NCBI GenBank assembly: GCA_038087875.1
Contig: CM075985.1
Span: 24,862,001-24,926,000, forward strand
Length of the DNA: 64,000 nt
Origin: Malacoraja senta
Taxonomy: Eukaryota
Direction of reading: 5' to 3'
In this document: positions 15,001 through 30,000 of the stretch, one piece after another
Numbering within the stretch: the first letter of the stretch is position 1
How the letters are laid out: each line of letters starts with the position of its first letter
Position numbers: made by a program

Positions 15001-18000
15001 CTGAGGATTAAGTATTTCAGTCAATTCAAGCAGATTATGGTCTGTGAATGAGGAAGTTGAGGATCCAATTGCAGAGGGATGCACAGAGACCCAATTCCGT
15101 GAGCTTGGTAACCAGCTTGCAGGGGATGATGGTATTGAACGCCAAGCTGTAGTCTATAAACAACAGCCTGACGTAAGTGTTATATTGTCCAAGTGGTCCA
15201 GTGTGGAGTGGAGAGCCAGTGAGATTGCATCCTCCGTGGACCTATTGTGATGGTAGGCAAACTGTAATGGGTCGAGGTTCTTGTTGAGGTAGGGGTTGAT
15301 ATGCCCCATAACCAACTTCTCAAAGAGTTGTGACCAATTGATGTACATGAGTTGCTGTGGAGATTCATTACTTATCCCTAGATTGTATATTTTGACTAAA
15401 CATCATCTGCTCAGTTTCAAAAGTACTGTACATTGAATGCATTGAGACAGCAGTGTGCCCCAATTAGTCAGCTAGAAGTTCTGCTCAATGGTGCATCTAG
15501 TAGTTCTGGTCAGTGGTGCATGGTGCATCTGGTCAGTGGTGGACTCACTGCTGAGATCTTCAGCCAAGGACGAGGCCAAAGTTGCCTGGAGTTCCAGAGC
15601 AGGTGGTGATAATTTTCACAGGAGCAGGTGCTGACACAGAGGCTGGTCTGGGTGGTCGGGATGCGTGTTGTTGTGAGTAGACCAGGTTTGTAAGCATAAT
15701 CAAGAATAGAAATAAGGAGACTGGGAGTGGGGCAGGGTTGATGACTAAGTTCTTATTAGATCTTGGTGCATCATGATGGCAGGGTCCTGAGATTATCAGT
15801 CCGGCTGAGGCATTGGTATCCGTCGGTGCCCTGTATGTGGCGACTCTTTGCATACCTTGTGTATGCAAAACAAAGAATCTCACGGTGACATGTCACGTGA
15901 TAATAAAGTATCATTCATTCATTCATACAGCAATACAAGTCTCTTATGATAACATGCTTGGAAGACTGATTAAATTTTGACCTCCTCATCTGAGAAAATA
16001 TATGCTTCCTGAGAGATCGTGCAGTGAAAGTTGACCGGATTGACTTCCGCTCCAGCAGAATTGTCATATCTGGAGAGATTAGGTCAAGTCCGTTTAACCA
16101 CCTGTAGTTAGTAGAATGGAAGAAAGCCTCACTGCAACTTCAAAAATCCAGAGAGGTCTGATAAGGATTCCCCTTGCTGTGGAGACTTAGACTATTGGGT
16201 CACAGTCTCAAGATATTGGCACGAAATTATGGACTGAAATGAGGAGAACATGAGGAGAGAGTGAGGCCCTGTGGAGTTTGCTAATCAAAACACTTGAGAG
16301 CCAACATCACTGAATATATTTTAGGAGGTAGAGAAATATAAAATATCAAAAGCCTCAAGGGGGTTGGATAGAAAGCGATCATCAGCCATAATCATATTGA
16401 ATGGCAGAGCTTGTCCTTCCATTTACTATACAATTAAAATAGTTGAGTGCCAATTGTCCATTTCCCTTATTGGCCAATAAATGAATCACCAGAGGAAATC
16501 GGTCTCGGACAGGCGGTAGAAAACTGGATTTTTATCCCGCCACCCCCCTCAAAGGCGCCAAAGTCACGCACATGGCCAGTGGCAGAACTGCAGCGCAGCT
16601 GAAGGTAAGTATTGTAACATTGCTACAACATGCTGGAGTAACTCAGCGGGACCGGCAGCATCTCTGGAGAGAAGGAATGGATGATGTTTCGGGTCGAGAC
16701 CCTTCTTCAGTCTGAAAGAAGGGTCTTGACCTGAAACGTCACCCATTCCTTCTCTCCAGATATGCTGCCGGTCCCGCTGAGTCACTCCTACATTTTGTAG
16801 GAGTCTATCTCAATTTTCTTGGCCCCGCTCTGGGAGCAGAAGAGGGGACGGATCGGATCCGCAATGGCCGTGAGCCCCAGGCCGAGTTCGACGATCGTTT
16901 GCCTGCTTCTACTGCTGTTGGAGGTGAGAGGTTGCGTCACGCCAGGGTCTTGGGCCTGTCCCACTTTGGCCGTCAGTTACGCAACGGGTCGGTTGCTCGC
17001 GAAGATTCCGTTTGGTACAAAATTCCGGAACGCCGCGCGATACCGCGCACAACTCCATACCCCTCCGCGCTTCTCAGTGGAAGCGGCCCCGCGCGGCCAC
17101 ACGATGCCCGTGCGCCTCAACGCGATGACGAGGTCACTTAATTTGCATGCCAAGGACACGCAAGTGGGACAGGCCACTTCACCAAAAGAGTTTCAGACCA
17201 CAACATCATCTACTACCAGCTACAAACTAAACAGGTAACAGTGGGATTACAGTACTTCTTGCCCACAATTGTTCTTGAAAGGAACCTGGTTTATTCTTCC
17301 GTCTTTGAACAAAATATCACTGATTGTATCTCACATTATTCTTCCTAATTGATTGCTTTGATAGGATGGCATCATTGGATTGATGTTGCAATTTAAAGGG
17401 CAACATGAAGAAGAAAATCTATTGTTAACATGACAATCTAACTGAATGTGATGAATGGAAACACAAAAGATGCTGATGGAAGGTTGTGCACTTGCCTCCT
17501 TAACATGGGGCAATTGTGAATTGACCAGCAATAAATGCCTGCATTGCTGGTGGTACCTACACCCTGAAATAAAAAATGAAAAGATGGACCTGATGCCAAG
17601 TCATCGAGCAACAGTGTGCATTATAACTTGCTGTGATATCTTTTATGTTTTACAGAAACAACAACAACAAAGGTACCACCCACAACTACATCGACCCGCA
17701 GCTACACAGCTGGTAAGTGATTGACGGTTGTTTATCCTTGCACCAAGTTTGTCGGCACAGGTCTCTGGGTGAGCCATTGAGAAAGCAGCAACGTACAACT
17801 TTCACAGCTTTCTCAGATAATGCATTTTCTAAACATTTGCTTTTGAATTAATTGTAGCTGTGGACTTTGTGTTGTAAATTATGGATAATCTTCAGAGGAC
17901 TGTGTTTCGGTGAATTTTCCCATTAGACTGTGCTGATCAAGAAATCAACACCAGTTGATACAATATTCAGTGATGTGCATAATTGGCAGAAATAGGCTCA

Positions 18001-27000: not shown

Positions 27001-30000
27001 TGGGTGAGCCATTGAGAAAGCAGCAACGTACAACTTTCACAGCTTTCTCAGATAATGCATTTTCTAAACATTTGCTTGTGAATTAATTGTAGCTGTGGAC
27101 TTTGTGTTGTAAATTATGGATAATCTTCAGAGGACTGTGTTTCAGTGAATATTCCCATTAGACTGTGCTGATCAAGAATTCAACACCAGTTGATATAATA
27201 TTCAGTGATGTGCATAATTGGCAGAAATAGGCTCATGATTATGTGCCTCCAATATGTGAAATGCAAATGAGTATTCCACAGATTATTTTGATTTAATATA
27301 TCTTGTCATCCAAAAATATTGTGATTCAAAAGAAGGCAAAATGTTTCAGGAATTTGGGAGTAGGTGCTGCACATCTTCACAACTATAAACCCGGCCAGTG
27401 CTGAGAAATACCATCAAATGAGGAAATATGTATCTTGCTATTTTATTTTGTACTTTTGGTTAATGAACACTTGAAGGAAGATGAACTGAACCTTTGCTTC
27501 TCCTTTTCCAGACTGGAAATGTAATGGTGTCTGGTCTGCATGGTATAATGACCACATACCAACTGAATACAGTCCAGGCGATACTGAATTACTGGAATCC
27601 ATACGGCAAGATCTGTGTCCTTCCAGTTACTGTACAATTAAAAAGGTTGAGTGCCAATTTGTCGATTTCCCTTATTGGCCACTAAATGATTCACCAGACA
27701 ATGTGACCTGTGACCCAGACTTAGGACTGGTCTGCATAGTCTCCAATGAGCCTTTGGAGGAAGTCAACATCTGTTTTGACTATCAAATTCGATTTTGCTA
27801 TGAGCATGTAGCAACAACAACTCCAAGTACAACATCAACAACAACAATTTCAGGTAAATATGCCAGTCATGTGCAAGGATACTGTCTTTTATTGATGGGG
27901 CATTTGGAATTTTATCTGTTTCAGTGAGAGTTCCTGATGCATTTCCATCCATCACGTTTCCCCTCTAATGAGCTCTGTACAAACTAGCCAGCCCATATTC
28001 TCTCCATTAATCCCCACTCTTCATGTGGCCATGCTACTTCTCATTTTCTTAAAATTCTATCCCTCACCGACGACTTCCTTCTGCTGCGGTCCATACACTC
28101 TCTCATCCTCCTTCCCTCTGTCTATTTCCAGCAGTAATTCTCAAGCCACCGATCTAAGCTACAGAGTATCCTTCAACTTGGATACCTTTCCCTATGAGGA
28201 ACTCTTACTCTGCCCTTCTTTAACTCTCTATCACTCCTTAACACCATTGAGAAACAACTTCACCAAAAGAGTTTCAAACAACAACATCATCTACTACCAG
28301 CTACAAACTAGACGGGTAACAGTGGGATTACTGTACTTCTTGCCCACAGTTGCTCTTCAAAGGAACCTGGTTTATTCTTCCGTCTTTGAACAAAATATCA
28401 CTGATTCTATCTCACATTATTCTTCCTAATTGATTGCTTTGATTGGATGGCATAATTGGATTTATGTTGCAATTTAAAGGGCAACATGAAGAAGAAAATC
28501 TATTGTGAACATGACAATCTAACTGAATGTGATGAATGGAAACACAAAAGGATGCTGATGGAAGGTTGAGCACTTGCCTCCTTAACATGGGGCAATGGTG
28601 AATTGACAATAGATGCCTGCATTGCTGGTGGTACCTACACCTTGAAATAAAAAATGAAAAGATGGACCTGATACCAAGTCATCGAGGAACAGTGTGCATT
28701 ATAACTTGCCGTGACATCTTTTATGTTTTACAGAAACAACAACAACAAAGGTACCACCCACAACTACATCGGCCCGCAGCTACACAGCTGGTAAGTGATT
28801 GACGGTTGTTTATCCTTGCACCAAGTTTGTCGGCACAGGTCTCTGGGTGAGCCATTGAGAAAGCAGCAACGTACAACTTTCACTGAGCTTTCTCAGATAA
28901 TGCATTTTCTAAACATTTGCTTTTGAATTAATTGTAGCTGTGGACTTTGTGTTGTAAATTATGGATAATCTTCAGAGGACTGTGTTTCAGTGAATATTCC
29001 CATTAGACTGTGCTGATCAAGAATTCAACACCAGTTGATACAATATTTAGTGATGTGCATAATTGGCAGAAATAGGCTCATGATTATGTGCCTCCAATAT
29101 GTGAAATGCAAATGAGTATTCCACAGATTATTTTGATTTAATATATCTTGTCATCCAAAAATATTGTGATTCAAAAGAAGGCAAAATGTTTCAGAGATTT
29201 GGGAGTAGGTGCTGCACATCTTCACAACTATAAACCGGGCCAGTGCTGAGAAATACCATCAAATGAGGAAATATGTATCTTGCTATTTTATTTTGTACTT
29301 TTGGTTAATGAACACTTGAAGGAAGCTTCTCCTTTTCCAGACTGGAAATGTAATGGTGTCTGGTCTGCATGGTATAATGATCACACACCATCTGAATACA
29401 GTCCAGGCAATACTGAATTACTTGAATCCATACGGCAAGATCTGTGCCCTTCCATTTACCATACAATTAAAAAAGTCGAGTGCCAATTTGCCGATTTCCC
29501 TGAATGGCCAATAAATGAATCGCCAGACAATGTGACCTGTGACCCAGACGTAGGACTGGTCTGCAGTGTCTCCATAGAATCCTTGGAGGAAGTCAAGGTC
29601 TGTCTTGACTATCAAATTCGATTTTGCTGTGAGAATATAGCAACAACAATTCCAAGTACAACATCTGTTTTCAGCTGCAATTCTACATTCACCAATCTAC
29701 TCAAACATGGCCTATCATCCATCTTTGTTCCTTTTCCCAATGAGGAACCCTTACTCTTCCCTCCTTTAACCCTCTCTCACACCTTATCTGCTCTCTGCTA
29801 CAGATTCATCTTGATTATCTTATCGCTTTTTCATTCACCTCCATAAAATTCACATGGACCTTGTTGTCATTAAAACTGAGAGGCCTTGAATGTATGTGGT
29901 GTAGTAGACAGTTTGGAAGGCGTAGCGCAAAAGGAGAGCAAGGGGAGGTGGACAGGATAAGCTCTCGGAGTCACAATAGAAGACGGGAGAAAATCTGAAG

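What the first reader, a model, noticed from the sequence alone, without database searches (positions are those of the whole stretch)
17176..29665. Intron-containing 1.85 kb tandem array encoding a 133-aa CysD plus short Thr-linker repeat
Seen: each unit contributes 57+342 = 399 coding nt, giving CysD beads separated by only ~30-35 Thr-rich residues. Introns look as similar between copies as exons do. Established: in mammalian MUC5AC/MUC5B, CysD and PTS repeats lie in one giant exon with long PTS spacers. Inference: here mucin length and CysD valency are set by recent unequal crossing-over of an exon-intron cassette. The product would be CysD-dense and PTS-poor, and copy number probably varies between individuals.
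Basis: partly seen in the sequence, partly recalled or inferred. Interest (0 to 1): 0.68.

Follow-up and report, generated by a model that had tools for sequence, protein, structure and literature searches.

The report
Tandem CysD exon cassettes in mucin
A gel-forming mucin gene in a non-human vertebrate carries seven near-identical 1.85 kb exon-plus-intron cassettes, each encoding a cysteine-rich CysD bead and a short sugar-bearing linker; this is an unusual gene layout for an otherwise ordinary mucin.

Summary
Window 17176-29665 is a head-to-tail array of six complete copies and one truncated copy of a ~1847-nt unit, 94-100% identical.

Each unit has a 57-nt Thr-rich exon and a 342-nt CysD exon (Pfam PF13330). 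Both are phase 1-1, open, and have canonical splice sites in 7 of 7 and 6 of 7 copies respectively. The seventh CysD exon lost its donor in a deletion.

Each unit also carries a 64-nt frameshifted relic of a third linker exon. That exon is still intact, at 54 nt, in an older copy.

The array lies in the D3-to-D4 central region of a MUC2/MUC5-type mucin. It sits inside an older series of the same cassette, and identity falls from the centre outwards: 71, 88, 99-100, 97, 94, 80, 76%.

Exons are no better conserved than introns, and dN/dS is 0.5-1.7. This points to recent unequal crossing-over or gene conversion.

Splicing, copy-number variation between individuals and assembly accuracy could not be tested. 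Multi-exon mucin domains are already known in Xenopus, chicken and Schistosoma, so this is a new variant of a known kind.

The parts
17176..29786 (+). Tandem array. Units: U1 17176-19022, U2 19023-20869, U3 20870-22716, U4 22717-24564, U5 24565-26413, U6 26414-28256, U7 28257-29665 plus a diverged tail to 29786.
19503..19559 (+). 57-nt Thr-rich linker exon, phase 1-1 (unit 2). Equivalents: 17656-17712, 21350-21406, 23198-23254, 25048-25104, 26891-26947, 28734-28790.
   Evidence: 7 of 7 are open, with the same AG acceptor context and gtaagt donor. T+S is 10-11 of 18.
20124..20465 (+). 342-nt CysD exon, phase 1-1 (unit 2). Equivalents: 18277-18618, 21971-22312, 23819-24160, 25669-26010, 27512-27853.
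   Evidence: PF13330 at E 9e-16 and 1e-13. Best solved relative is the MUC5B CysD chain 8oer_I, E 1e-12. 8 Cys, 4 Trp, WSAW motif, 2-3 N-x-S/T sequons.
29341..29665 (+). Unit 7 CysD exon. The acceptor is intact. The ancestral 3' end and donor are deleted, and the frame runs on to a stop at 29844.
   Evidence: PF13330 E 1.3e-15.
19018..19081 (+). 64-nt disabled third exon (unit 2). Equivalents lie at unit start -5 to +58 in U3-U7; the U1 copy is 5'-truncated at 17176. It enters in phase 1 in a Thr-rich frame and leaves in phase 2, which gives a stop in the next exon.
31625..31678 (+). Intact 54-nt phase 1-1 homologue of the 64-nt relic, in the older cassette U8.
32031..32096 (+). 66-nt linker exon of older cassette U8.
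33994..34335 (+). 342-nt CysD exon of older cassette U8. 82.7% nucleotide identity to unit 2.
35356..35415 (+). 60-nt linker exon of a ninth, linker-only cassette (35181-35454 is 76% identical to the unit).
12104..12184 (+). 81-nt linker exon of an upstream cassette (12078-12649 is 71% identical to the unit). Its CysD exon survives only as a relic at 12650-12682.
16412..16493 (+). Frameshifted relic of a CysD exon, 88% identical to unit positions 1206-1288. It is the decayed edge copy just upstream of the array.
16494..17175 (.). 682-nt insertion that forms the 5' boundary of the array. It has a hairpin repeat at 16623-16800 and a CpG-rich unique part at 16801-17175.
43100..43159 (+). 60-nt Thr-rich phase 1-1 exon.
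44201..44683 (+). 483-nt PTS exon (Thr/Pro/Met-rich, built of 9/15-nt repeats), phase 1-1.
46685..46741 (+). 57-nt candidate linker exon before the last CysD exon (donor gtaaca).
47609..48003 (+). Last CysD exon, 395 nt, phase 1 to phase 0. It continues into the cysteine-bearing segment that precedes D4.
   Evidence: PF13330 E 1e-18
6177..6208 (+). Last cysteine-rich exon of the D3 side. It ends in phase 1 and opens the phase-1 cassette zone. It is followed by a 69-nt Thr-rich exon at 6585-6653.
2518..2706 (+). C8 module of the D3 assembly.
   Evidence: PF08742 E 1e-15. Matches MUC5AC residues 1082-1135 and MUC2 residues 1045-1098.
50344..50517 (+). Cysteine-rich segment just before VWD4.
   Evidence: MUC2 C-terminal chain 7qcl_A residues 19-72, E 4e-7. 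An ORF with a GDPHY-type VWD start follows at 50751.
54605..54859 (+). C8 module of the D4 assembly.
   Evidence: PF08742 E 5e-13. Hits on MUC2 D4 chains and FCGBP.

Best explanation
This is part of the central, glycosylated region of a MUC2/MUC5-type gel-forming mucin gene on the + strand. In this animal that region is built from many small phase 1-1 exons rather than one giant exon.

The basic cassette was originally three exons: a 54-nt linker, a ~57-66-nt linker and a 342-nt CysD exon. One version of it, in which the first linker exon had already been disabled, was amplified in place. That produced six complete copies and one truncated copy of 1.85 kb. The mechanism was unequal homologous recombination between misaligned units, with gene conversion between neighbours.

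Every exon in the zone starts and ends in phase 1. Any gain, loss or skipping of a cassette therefore keeps the reading frame, and each intact cassette adds one CysD bead plus about 35 O-glycosylatable residues.

Shown: the array, the exon structure, the domain identity, the gene context and the divergence pattern. Inferred: that the exons are spliced in, that the product is a CysD-dense mucin with stronger non-covalent cross-linking, and that copy number is polymorphic.
For: Array and period.

Exons: 7 of 7 small exons and 6 of 7 large exons are open, with canonical and identical splice contexts. The phases were read from the sequence.

CysD identity: PF13330 in 6 of 6 CysD exon translations scanned. 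The best solved relatives are the MUC5B, MUC2 and MUC5AC CysD chains.

Gene context: the D3 C8 module, the end of VWD3, the pre-D4 segment and the D4 C8 module. The last D3-side exon ends in phase 1. The last CysD exon runs on into the pre-D4 segment.

In-situ history: identity to unit 2 runs 71 / 88 / 99.3 / 100 / 99.9 / 99.2 / 97.1 / 96.7 / 94.1 / 80 / 76% along the gene. Non-exon divergence from U7 is lowest for its neighbour: U6 5.3%, U5 6.65%, U1-U4 7.3-7.6%. The unit tree is a ladder, with clade U1-U4 supported at 96/100. Site patterns are mosaic: U6 shares 12 sites with U7 only. All copies are distinguishable, and U2-U3 differ at 2 of 1847 sites.

Three-exon ancestor.

Long-term constraint on the domain: 7 Cys are invariant across six copies whose protein identity to unit 2 falls to 45%. 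The chance of this for the most distant pair is 0.003.

The centre-versus-edge model of unequal crossing-over is set out in PMC2576457 (passages).
Against: No transcript evidence was available, so inclusion of the exons is inferred only from open frames and splice motifs.

Among the recent copies there is no sign of purifying selection. Exons are as divergent as introns or more so (U6-U7 41/399 against 60/1128, p = 0.001; U2-U5 p = 0.08). dN/dS is 0.9-1.7 between the two subfamilies and 0.53-0.59 against U7, on 13-34 differences. It is 0.86 between U2 and U8.

Cassettes demonstrably decay in this gene: U7 has lost its donor, and there are relics at 12650 and 16412.

The structure models were poor, with pLDDT 41.9 and 54.0. 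Fold membership is therefore not shown independently of sequence.

Assembly accuracy of the three near-identical central units cannot be checked.
Confidence: 0.8

Rival explanations
1. The array is real, but most of its exons are evolutionarily idle. On this view it is a recent neutral expansion whose cassettes are skipped, only partly used, or on their way to becoming pseudo-exons, so it does not set the CysD valency of the protein.
For: dN/dS is about 1 between subfamilies and exons are no better conserved than introns. U7 has lost its donor. Every unit carries a disabled exon. Two decayed CysD relics lie just upstream. All exons are phase 1-1, so skipping costs nothing.
Against: All 13 intact exons keep identical canonical splice sites and open frames. 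All 8 Cys and the WxxW motif are kept in the six intact copies. Within each subfamily the exon pairs are nearly identical (U2-U4 2/399, U5-U6 1/399) while the non-exon sequence differs at 12/1448 and 18/1444 sites; these contrasts are not significant, p = 0.75 and 0.10. With at most 4% divergence there has been little time for selection to show.
Confidence: 0.13
2. The copy number, or the array itself, is an assembly artefact. Either a real one- or two-copy cassette was over-expanded, or a larger array was collapsed.
For: U2 and U3 differ at only 2 of 1847 positions. Such repeats are hard for short reads. The mucin literature stresses how poorly these regions assemble (PMC4948705, passages; PMC9712336, passages).
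Against: Every unit is distinguishable. Differences are phylogenetically structured, with nested shared variants and a gradient along the array, rather than random. Diverged copies flank the array on both sides. There are no N runs. A total collapse to 1-2 copies is very unlikely, although a wrong count among the U1-U4 type remains possible.
Confidence: 0.05
3. The array belongs to a separate nested gene for a secreted chain of CysD domains without VWD domains, like the fish lateral-line 'Mucin-5AC' family. That gene would start at the CpG-rich segment just upstream of the array.
For: Segment 16801-17175 has GC 0.61 and CpG observed/expected 1.10, against 0.34 for the window. It contains an ATG at 16864 followed by 20 codons ending in a hydrophobic Leu run, then a GTGAGA donor. 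A family of signal peptide plus CysD-only proteins, with 27 CysD in a skate and 19 in a catshark, is described in PMC11765562 (passages).
Against: That donor is in phase 0, whereas every cassette acceptor is in phase 1. Splicing to the next exon therefore gives a stop inside the first CysD exon (read from the sequence). No ATG lies in the frame that would give phase 1. The last CysD exon is physically continuous with the pre-D4 segment. The D3 side ends in phase 1. Pfam finds nothing in the ORF.
Confidence: 0.02

Closest known systems
Mammalian MUC5AC / MUC5B / MUC2 central domains
   Same: The same domain family: PF13330 CysD with a WxxW motif, and the best solved relatives are the MUC5B, MUC2 and MUC5AC CysD chains. 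The same position between the D3 and D4 assemblies. CysD domains alternate with Thr-rich O-glycosylation segments.
   Different: In human the whole CysD/PTS region is one exon and the PTS blocks run to hundreds of residues (PMC9712336, passages; PMC5789918, passages). Here each CysD is its own 342-nt exon with separate linker exons and introns of 0.4-0.6 kb. Spacers are about 35 residues. The repeat unit that recombines is 1.85 kb of mostly intron. These CysD domains have 8 Cys.
Xenopus tropicalis skin mucin Otogl (MucXS)
   Same: A gel-forming mucin whose central domain is multi-exonic and consists of many Cys-rich repeats (39) alternating with PTS repeats (34) (PMC5789918, passages).
   Different: The authors state that its Cys-rich repeats are not typical CysD domains. 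I could not compare sequences, exon phases or intron conservation.
Chicken Muc13 and Schistosoma mansoni SmPoMuc
   Same: These are mucins whose repeats are encoded one per exon. In SmPoMuc, exon 2 with its flanking introns forms ~1-kb genomic tandem repeats that evolve in concert and vary in number between individuals (PMC1552070, PMC2576457; passages).
   Different: Those exons encode only short PTS-type repeats (27 nt in SmPoMuc), not a folded disulfide-rich domain. The proteins are unrelated to MUC2/5. The SmPoMuc authors found no centre-to-edge gradient, whereas this array shows one.
Fish lateral-line 'Mucin-5AC' (signal peptide plus a chain of CysD domains)
   Same: A chain of closely spaced CysD domains whose number varies widely between species: 2-7 in the bony fishes listed, 19 in a catshark and 27 in a skate (PMC11765562, passages).
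   Different: That family lacks VWD domains. Here the CysD exons are in phase with, and in one exon continuous with, the D3 and D4 parts of a classical mucin. No sequence comparison was possible.
Engineered tandem CysD molecules
   Same: Many CysD domains in close succession. Transgenic expression of such stretches made mucus gels more robust (as summarised in PMC7599080, passages; PMC4431476 and PMC6861317 seen as search listing and abstract only).
   Different: Those are artificial constructs. The array here would be a natural counterpart whose effect is untested.

Membership tests
CysD domain (Pfam PF13330, Mucin2_WxxW) | Profile match above the curated cut-off (22.4 bits) | tested here: met
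   51.9-69.4 bits in 6 of 6 CysD exon translations scanned: units 2, 5 and 7, U8, and the last CysD exon scanned in two versions.
CysD domain (Pfam PF13330, Mucin2_WxxW) | WxxW motif near the N-terminus | tested here: met
   W7 and W10 are invariant in all six aligned copies.
CysD domain (Pfam PF13330, Mucin2_WxxW) | Conserved cysteine scaffold | tested here: inconclusive
   7 Cys are invariant among six copies, and several align with Cys of the human MUC5B and MUC2 chains. There are only 8 Cys per domain, and the eighth sits at a different position in units 1-6. The disulfide map is not known.
CysD domain (Pfam PF13330, Mucin2_WxxW) | Small two-sheet beta-sandwich fold with calcium sites (PMC7599080, passages) | tested here: inconclusive
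   The models have pLDDT 41.9 and 54.0. The better one has six strands, and its top 8 Foldseek hits are all mucin CysD chains, but TM is only 0.38-0.44.
MUC2/MUC5-type gel-forming mucin | VWD-C8-TIL (D3) assembly upstream of the central region | tested here: met
   End of VWD and a C8 module that matches MUC5AC residues 1082-1135 and MUC2 residues 1045-1098. TIL-like Cys-rich ORFs gave no Pfam hit.
MUC2/MUC5-type gel-forming mucin | PTS segments with interspersed CysD domains | tested here: met
MUC2/MUC5-type gel-forming mucin | Fourth VWD assembly (D4) downstream | tested here: met
   The pre-D4 segment matches the MUC2 C-terminal chains. A VWD-start ORF lies at 50751. The C8 module at 54605 is.
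MUC2/MUC5-type gel-forming mucin | D1-D2 assemblies, C-terminal cystine knot, and orthology to MUC2 versus MUC5 | not testable with these tools
Mammalian-type mucin gene layout (single giant central exon) | CysD and PTS encoded in one uninterrupted exon | tested here: not met
   Each CysD reading frame is bounded by stops and splice motifs, and frame-interrupting sequence of 0.4-0.6 kb lies between exons.
VWD-less CysD-chain proteins of fish (lateral-line 'Mucin-5AC') | Signal peptide followed directly by CysD domains, with no VWD domains | tested here: not met
   Phase continuity with the D3 and D4 exons. The only upstream ATG/hydrophobic ORF is out of phase.

The most novel reading that the evidence does not exclude
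The intron-containing, phase 1-1 CysD cassette may be the ancestral layout of vertebrate MUC2/5 central domains, from which the giant mammalian exon arose by intron loss. In this lineage it would let CysD valency be tuned in two ways. One is germline unequal crossing-over on 1.85-kb units. The other is frame-neutral exon skipping within an individual. The amplified subfamily also carries a compensated cysteine relocation (position 96 to position 40), which could give it a different disulfide topology and different cross-linking behaviour.
Probability: 0.15. Interest if true: 0.6.

Novelty: new variant of a known kind. Interest (0 to 1): 0.4.

Why it matters
CysD number and spacing are thought to set how tightly mucin polymers interact. 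A ~40-residue PTS tether has a specific structural role in MUC2, and artificial tandem CysD stretches stiffen mucus (PMC7599080, passages). If expressed, a natural mucin with at least six near-identical CysD beads on ~35-residue tethers would be a ready-made test of those ideas.

The layout also bears on how mucin repeat regions grow. Here the recombining unit is mostly intron, and every exon is frame-neutral. Length can therefore change by whole folded domains, and alternative splicing could in principle do the same.

There is a practical side too. Arrays like this are a trap for gene predictors and short-read assemblies, through identical exons, a frameshifting pseudo-exon and a donor-less last copy.

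Tried and rejected
Tandem Repeats Finder did not report the array because its period limit is 500.

Rfam at gathering thresholds found 0 matches in the window, so it gave no RNA gene and no repeat-family clue.

Structure prediction of a single CysD exon used the only alignment available, six copies from this window. It gave pLDDT 41.9 for unit 2 and 54.0 for the last CysD. Only the second model was sent to Foldseek. Its top 8 hits are CysD chains, but at TM 0.38-0.44, so I do not count it as fold evidence.

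Pfam was run on the long intronic ORFs of the unit (190 aa on +, 89 aa on -), on the insertion ORFs and on a repeat-tail ORF. It gave nothing above cut-off; one nsP3_ZBD hit at 19.2 bits is below its 27-bit cut-off. In that of the 10 proteins had no family at all. No gene on the opposite strand is supported.

I considered including the 64-nt element as a real third exon and rejected it. With either possible acceptor it leaves the frame out of phase and gives a stop in the next exon.

I looked for a cryptic phase-1 donor for the unit 7 CysD exon. Eight GT sites exist. The only strong one (GTGAGA, after base 29628) would create a stop codon with the AA that begins the next linker exon.

I considered the signal-peptide-like ORF at 16864 as an alternative first exon and rejected it on splice phase.

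I did not use the bacterial/archaeal genome collection or the phage, plasmid and E. coli collections, because they cannot hold a vertebrate mucin.

Full report
**Scope and limits**

The window has no N. I do not take it for human. The best human relatives of its CysD exon are distant: the MUC5B CysD chain scores 51.5 bits, E 1e-12, over 93 residues. The gene layout also differs from the human one.

From recall only, the interspersed repeats resemble those of cartilaginous fishes. They are a hairpin element and LINE-tail-like ORFs. No tool here could confirm this, and nothing below depends on it.

All protein searches and folds were done exon by exon. The joined (spliced) product was not assembled, searched or folded. 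Continuity of the reading frame therefore rests on splice-phase arithmetic.

No orthologues, reads or transcripts were seen. Gene models in the supplements of the mucin surveys (for example PMC4948705) may already contain similar cases.

**The observation**

The array is real and sits at exactly the stated coordinates. The repeat finder gives seven in-register copies with start-to-start spacings of 1843-1850 nt. blastn of unit 2 against the window gives six full copies at 96.7-100% identity. A seventh copy, at 94.1%, stops at 29665 (unit position 1426). A 75% tail at 29664-29786 matches unit positions 1712-1831, so unit 7 carries a ~285-nt internal deletion. Tandem Repeats Finder missed the array only because of its 500-nt period limit.

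**Exon structure**

In each unit a 57-nt exon is followed, after a 564-nt intron, by a 342-nt exon.

- The 57-nt exon has acceptor ...ttttacag and donor gtaagt.
- The 342-nt exon has acceptor ...ttttccag and donor gtaaat.
- Both begin with two bases that complete a codon and end with one extra base, so both are phase 1-1. Together they make 399 nt, or 133 codons.
- All 7 small exons and 6 of the 7 large exons are open and have identical splice contexts.
- The unit 7 large exon has lost its last 17 nt and its donor. Its frame runs to a stop at 29844, and the phase-compatible GT sites inside it are weak or would create a stop.

The large exon is a CysD domain.

- PF13330 Mucin2_WxxW matches at E 9e-16 (unit 2), 1e-13 (unit 5) and 1e-15 (unit 7).
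- The best solved relatives are the MUC5B, MUC2 and MUC5AC CysD chains.
- It has a WSAW motif, 8 Cys and 2-3 N-glycosylation sequons, and its 18-residue tail holds 10-11 Thr/Ser.
- The small exon holds 10-11 Thr/Ser in 18 codons.

**A third, disabled exon**

Each unit begins with a 64-nt element (19018-19081 in unit 2). It follows a long pyrimidine tract and an AG, and it ends at a gtaaca donor. It enters in phase 1 in a Thr-rich frame but leaves in phase 2, which would give a stop in the next exon.

In the older cassette downstream, the homologous position is an intact 54-nt phase 1-1 exon (31625-31678, donor gtaggt). Alignment shows that the array version gained 6 nt and lost the original donor, so the next GT lies 4 nt further on.

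The ancestral cassette therefore had three exons. The version that was amplified already carried the disabled one. In unit 1 the element is cut at 17176, which is the array boundary.

**Gene context**

Upstream on the same strand lie:

- the end of a VWD domain;
- a C8 module that matches the D3 C8 of MUC5AC, MUC2 and MUC5B;
- Cys-rich exons, the last of which (6177-6208) ends in phase 1.

Downstream, the last CysD exon (47609-48003; PF13330 E 1e-18) starts in phase 1. It continues in the same exon into a Cys-bearing segment and ends in phase 0. After it come:

- a segment matching the MUC2 C-terminal chains just before D4;
- an ORF with a VWD start;
- a C8 module.

The window thus holds the whole central region of a MUC2/MUC5-type mucin, between about 6.2 and 48 kb. 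Every exon I could find in that zone is phase 1-1:

- 6585-6653 (69 nt)
- 12104-12184 (81 nt)
- the array
- 31625-31678
- 32031-32096
- 33994-34335 (CysD)
- 35356-35415
- 43100-43159
- 44201-44683 (a 161-codon Thr/Pro/Met PTS exon)
- 46685-46741

The scans required Thr/Ser/Pro-rich frames and good splice motifs, so the list is a minimum.

The count is 8 intact CysD exons, one donor-less copy and two relics (12650-12682 and 16412-16493). 'CysD-dense and PTS-poor' is a fair description, with the one 161-codon PTS exon as the exception.

**History of the array**

The array sits within an older series of the same cassette. Identity to unit 2 along the gene is:

| Copy | Identity to unit 2 |
|---|---|
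| 12078-12649 | 71% |
| 16412 relic | 88% |
| U1 | 99.3% |
| U2 | 100% |
| U3 | 99.9% |
| U4 | 99.2% |
| U5 | 97.1% |
| U6 | 96.7% |
| U7 | 94.1% |
| 31686-34677 | ~80% |
| 35181-35454 | 76% |

- Units fall into subfamily A (U1-U4) and subfamily B (U5-U6); 30 sites have the pattern that separates them.
- U6 shares 12 further sites with U7 only, and U1 and U4 keep some ancestral states.
- A maximum-likelihood tree rooted on the older cassette is a ladder, U7, U6, U5, then clade A at 96/100 support.
- Non-exon divergence from U7 is lowest for its neighbour: U6 5.3%, U5 6.65%, U1-U4 7.3-7.6%.

Homogeneous central units and diverged, decaying edge units are the pattern expected from unequal crossing-over. 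That model is set out in PMC2576457 (passages). The mosaic units suggest that conversion between neighbours also occurred. The structured variation also argues against an assembly artefact, although the exact count of the nearly identical U1-U4 type cannot be verified.

**Selection**

Exons are not better conserved than introns:

| Pair | Exon differences | Non-exon differences | p |
|---|---|---|---|
| U2-U5 | 16/399 | 34/1447 | 0.08 |
| U2-U7 | 42/399 | 82/1128 | 0.04 |
| U6-U7 | 41/399 | 60/1128 | 0.001 |
| U5-U6 | 1/399 | 18/1444 | 0.10 |
| U2-U4 | 2/399 | 12/1448 | 0.75 |

- Within each subfamily the exon pairs are almost identical (the last two rows), but neither contrast with the non-exon sequence is significant.
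- dN/dS on the large exon is 0.9-1.7 between subfamilies (13-14 differences) and 0.53-0.59 against U7. It is 0.86 between U2 and the older cassette.
- The fold-defining residues are nevertheless kept. Seven Cys, both Trp of the motif and 26 other positions are invariant across six copies whose protein identity to unit 2 falls to 45%. For the most distant pair the chance of sparing all 7 Cys is 0.003.

I read this as a conserved scaffold with a freely evolving surface, in copies too young to show selection. It equally allows that some copies are idle.

**Mechanism and rivals**

My best explanation is in-situ amplification of a frame-neutral exon cassette by unequal recombination. Each intact copy adds one CysD bead on a ~35-residue O-glycosylated tether (confidence 0.8 for the genomic part).

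The rivals are:

1. The copies are largely unused (0.13).
2. The copy number is mis-assembled (0.05).
3. The array is a separate VWD-less CysD-chain gene starting at the CpG-rich segment next to the array (0.02). Splice phase, and the physical continuity of the last CysD exon with the pre-D4 segment, contradict this.

**Comparison with what is known**

Mammalian mucins encode the central domain in one long exon (PMC5789918, PMC9712336; passages). A recent preprint abstract says all mucins harbour such an exon (PMC13345508, abstract in listing only).

Multi-exon mucin domains are nevertheless in print (all seen as passages):

- Xenopus Otogl/MucXS, which has 39 Cys-rich repeats that are not CysD, and 34 PTS repeats (PMC5789918).
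- Chicken Muc13 (PMC1552070).
- SmPoMuc, whose ~1-kb exon-plus-intron repeats vary between individuals (PMC2576457).
- A family of CysD-only chains, with 27 CysD in a skate (PMC11765562).

In five full-text searches I found no description of intron-containing tandem cassettes of true CysD exons inside a MUC2/5-type mucin. The library is partial, supplements were closed, and the gene may well be annotated in a public genome.

I therefore rate this as a new variant of a known kind, of moderate interest.

Noticed in passing
window 16801-17175: A unique CpG-island-like segment directly abuts the 5' end of the array. GC is 0.61 and CpG observed/expected is 1.10, against 0.34 for the window. It holds an ATG at 16864, 20 codons ending in a Leu-rich hydrophobic run, and a GTGAGA donor at 16924. 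It looks like the first exon of a secreted protein, but it is out of phase with the cassette exons. Pfam finds nothing.
   Followed up: partly
window 16623-16800; also 3216-3301, 3824-3938, 5285-5355, 8869-8934, 44732-44819: An interspersed element that forms an 85-nt-arm hairpin (89% complementary). At least five further copies or half-copies lie in the window. It has no Rfam match at gathering thresholds.
   Followed up: partly
CysD exons, residues 40 and 96 of the exon translation (e.g. 20124-20465 versus 29341-29665, 33994-34335, 47609-48003): There are eight Cys per domain in all copies. Units 1-6 have Cys at position 40 and Tyr at position 96. Unit 7, the older cassette and the last CysD have the usual Cys-Cys doublet at 95-96 and His, Tyr or no Cys at 40. 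This is a compensated cysteine relocation fixed before the amplification. Its structural meaning is unknown because the models were too poor.
   Followed up: partly
window 44201-44683: The only long PTS exon is unusually Met-rich (repeated Thr/Pro/Met motifs). It is built from 9- and 15-nt repeats, with 72-73% matches by Tandem Repeats Finder.
   Followed up: no
window 12105-12142: An (AAC) run of 12.7 copies gives 12 consecutive Thr codons in the 81-nt linker exon. It is a microsatellite inside a coding exon and is likely to vary in length.
   Followed up: no
window 33500-33841: The intron before the older CysD exon contains extra sequence that is absent from the array units. It includes an ORF (33609-33887) that I recall as resembling LINE 3' tails. 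It has no Pfam hit, and a weak reverse-strand match lies at 59145-59227.
   Followed up: partly
window 41480-41720 and 40001-42000: An 84-nt tandem repeat of 2.9 copies (91% matches) lies in the most GC-rich 2 kb of the window (GC 0.49), inside the long intron between the exons at 35415 and 43100.
   Followed up: no
window 57695-58435 (+): A 246-codon open frame in an intron of the D4/C-terminal part, with an overlapping 240-codon frame. It is probably a transposon remnant. It was not scanned.
   Followed up: no
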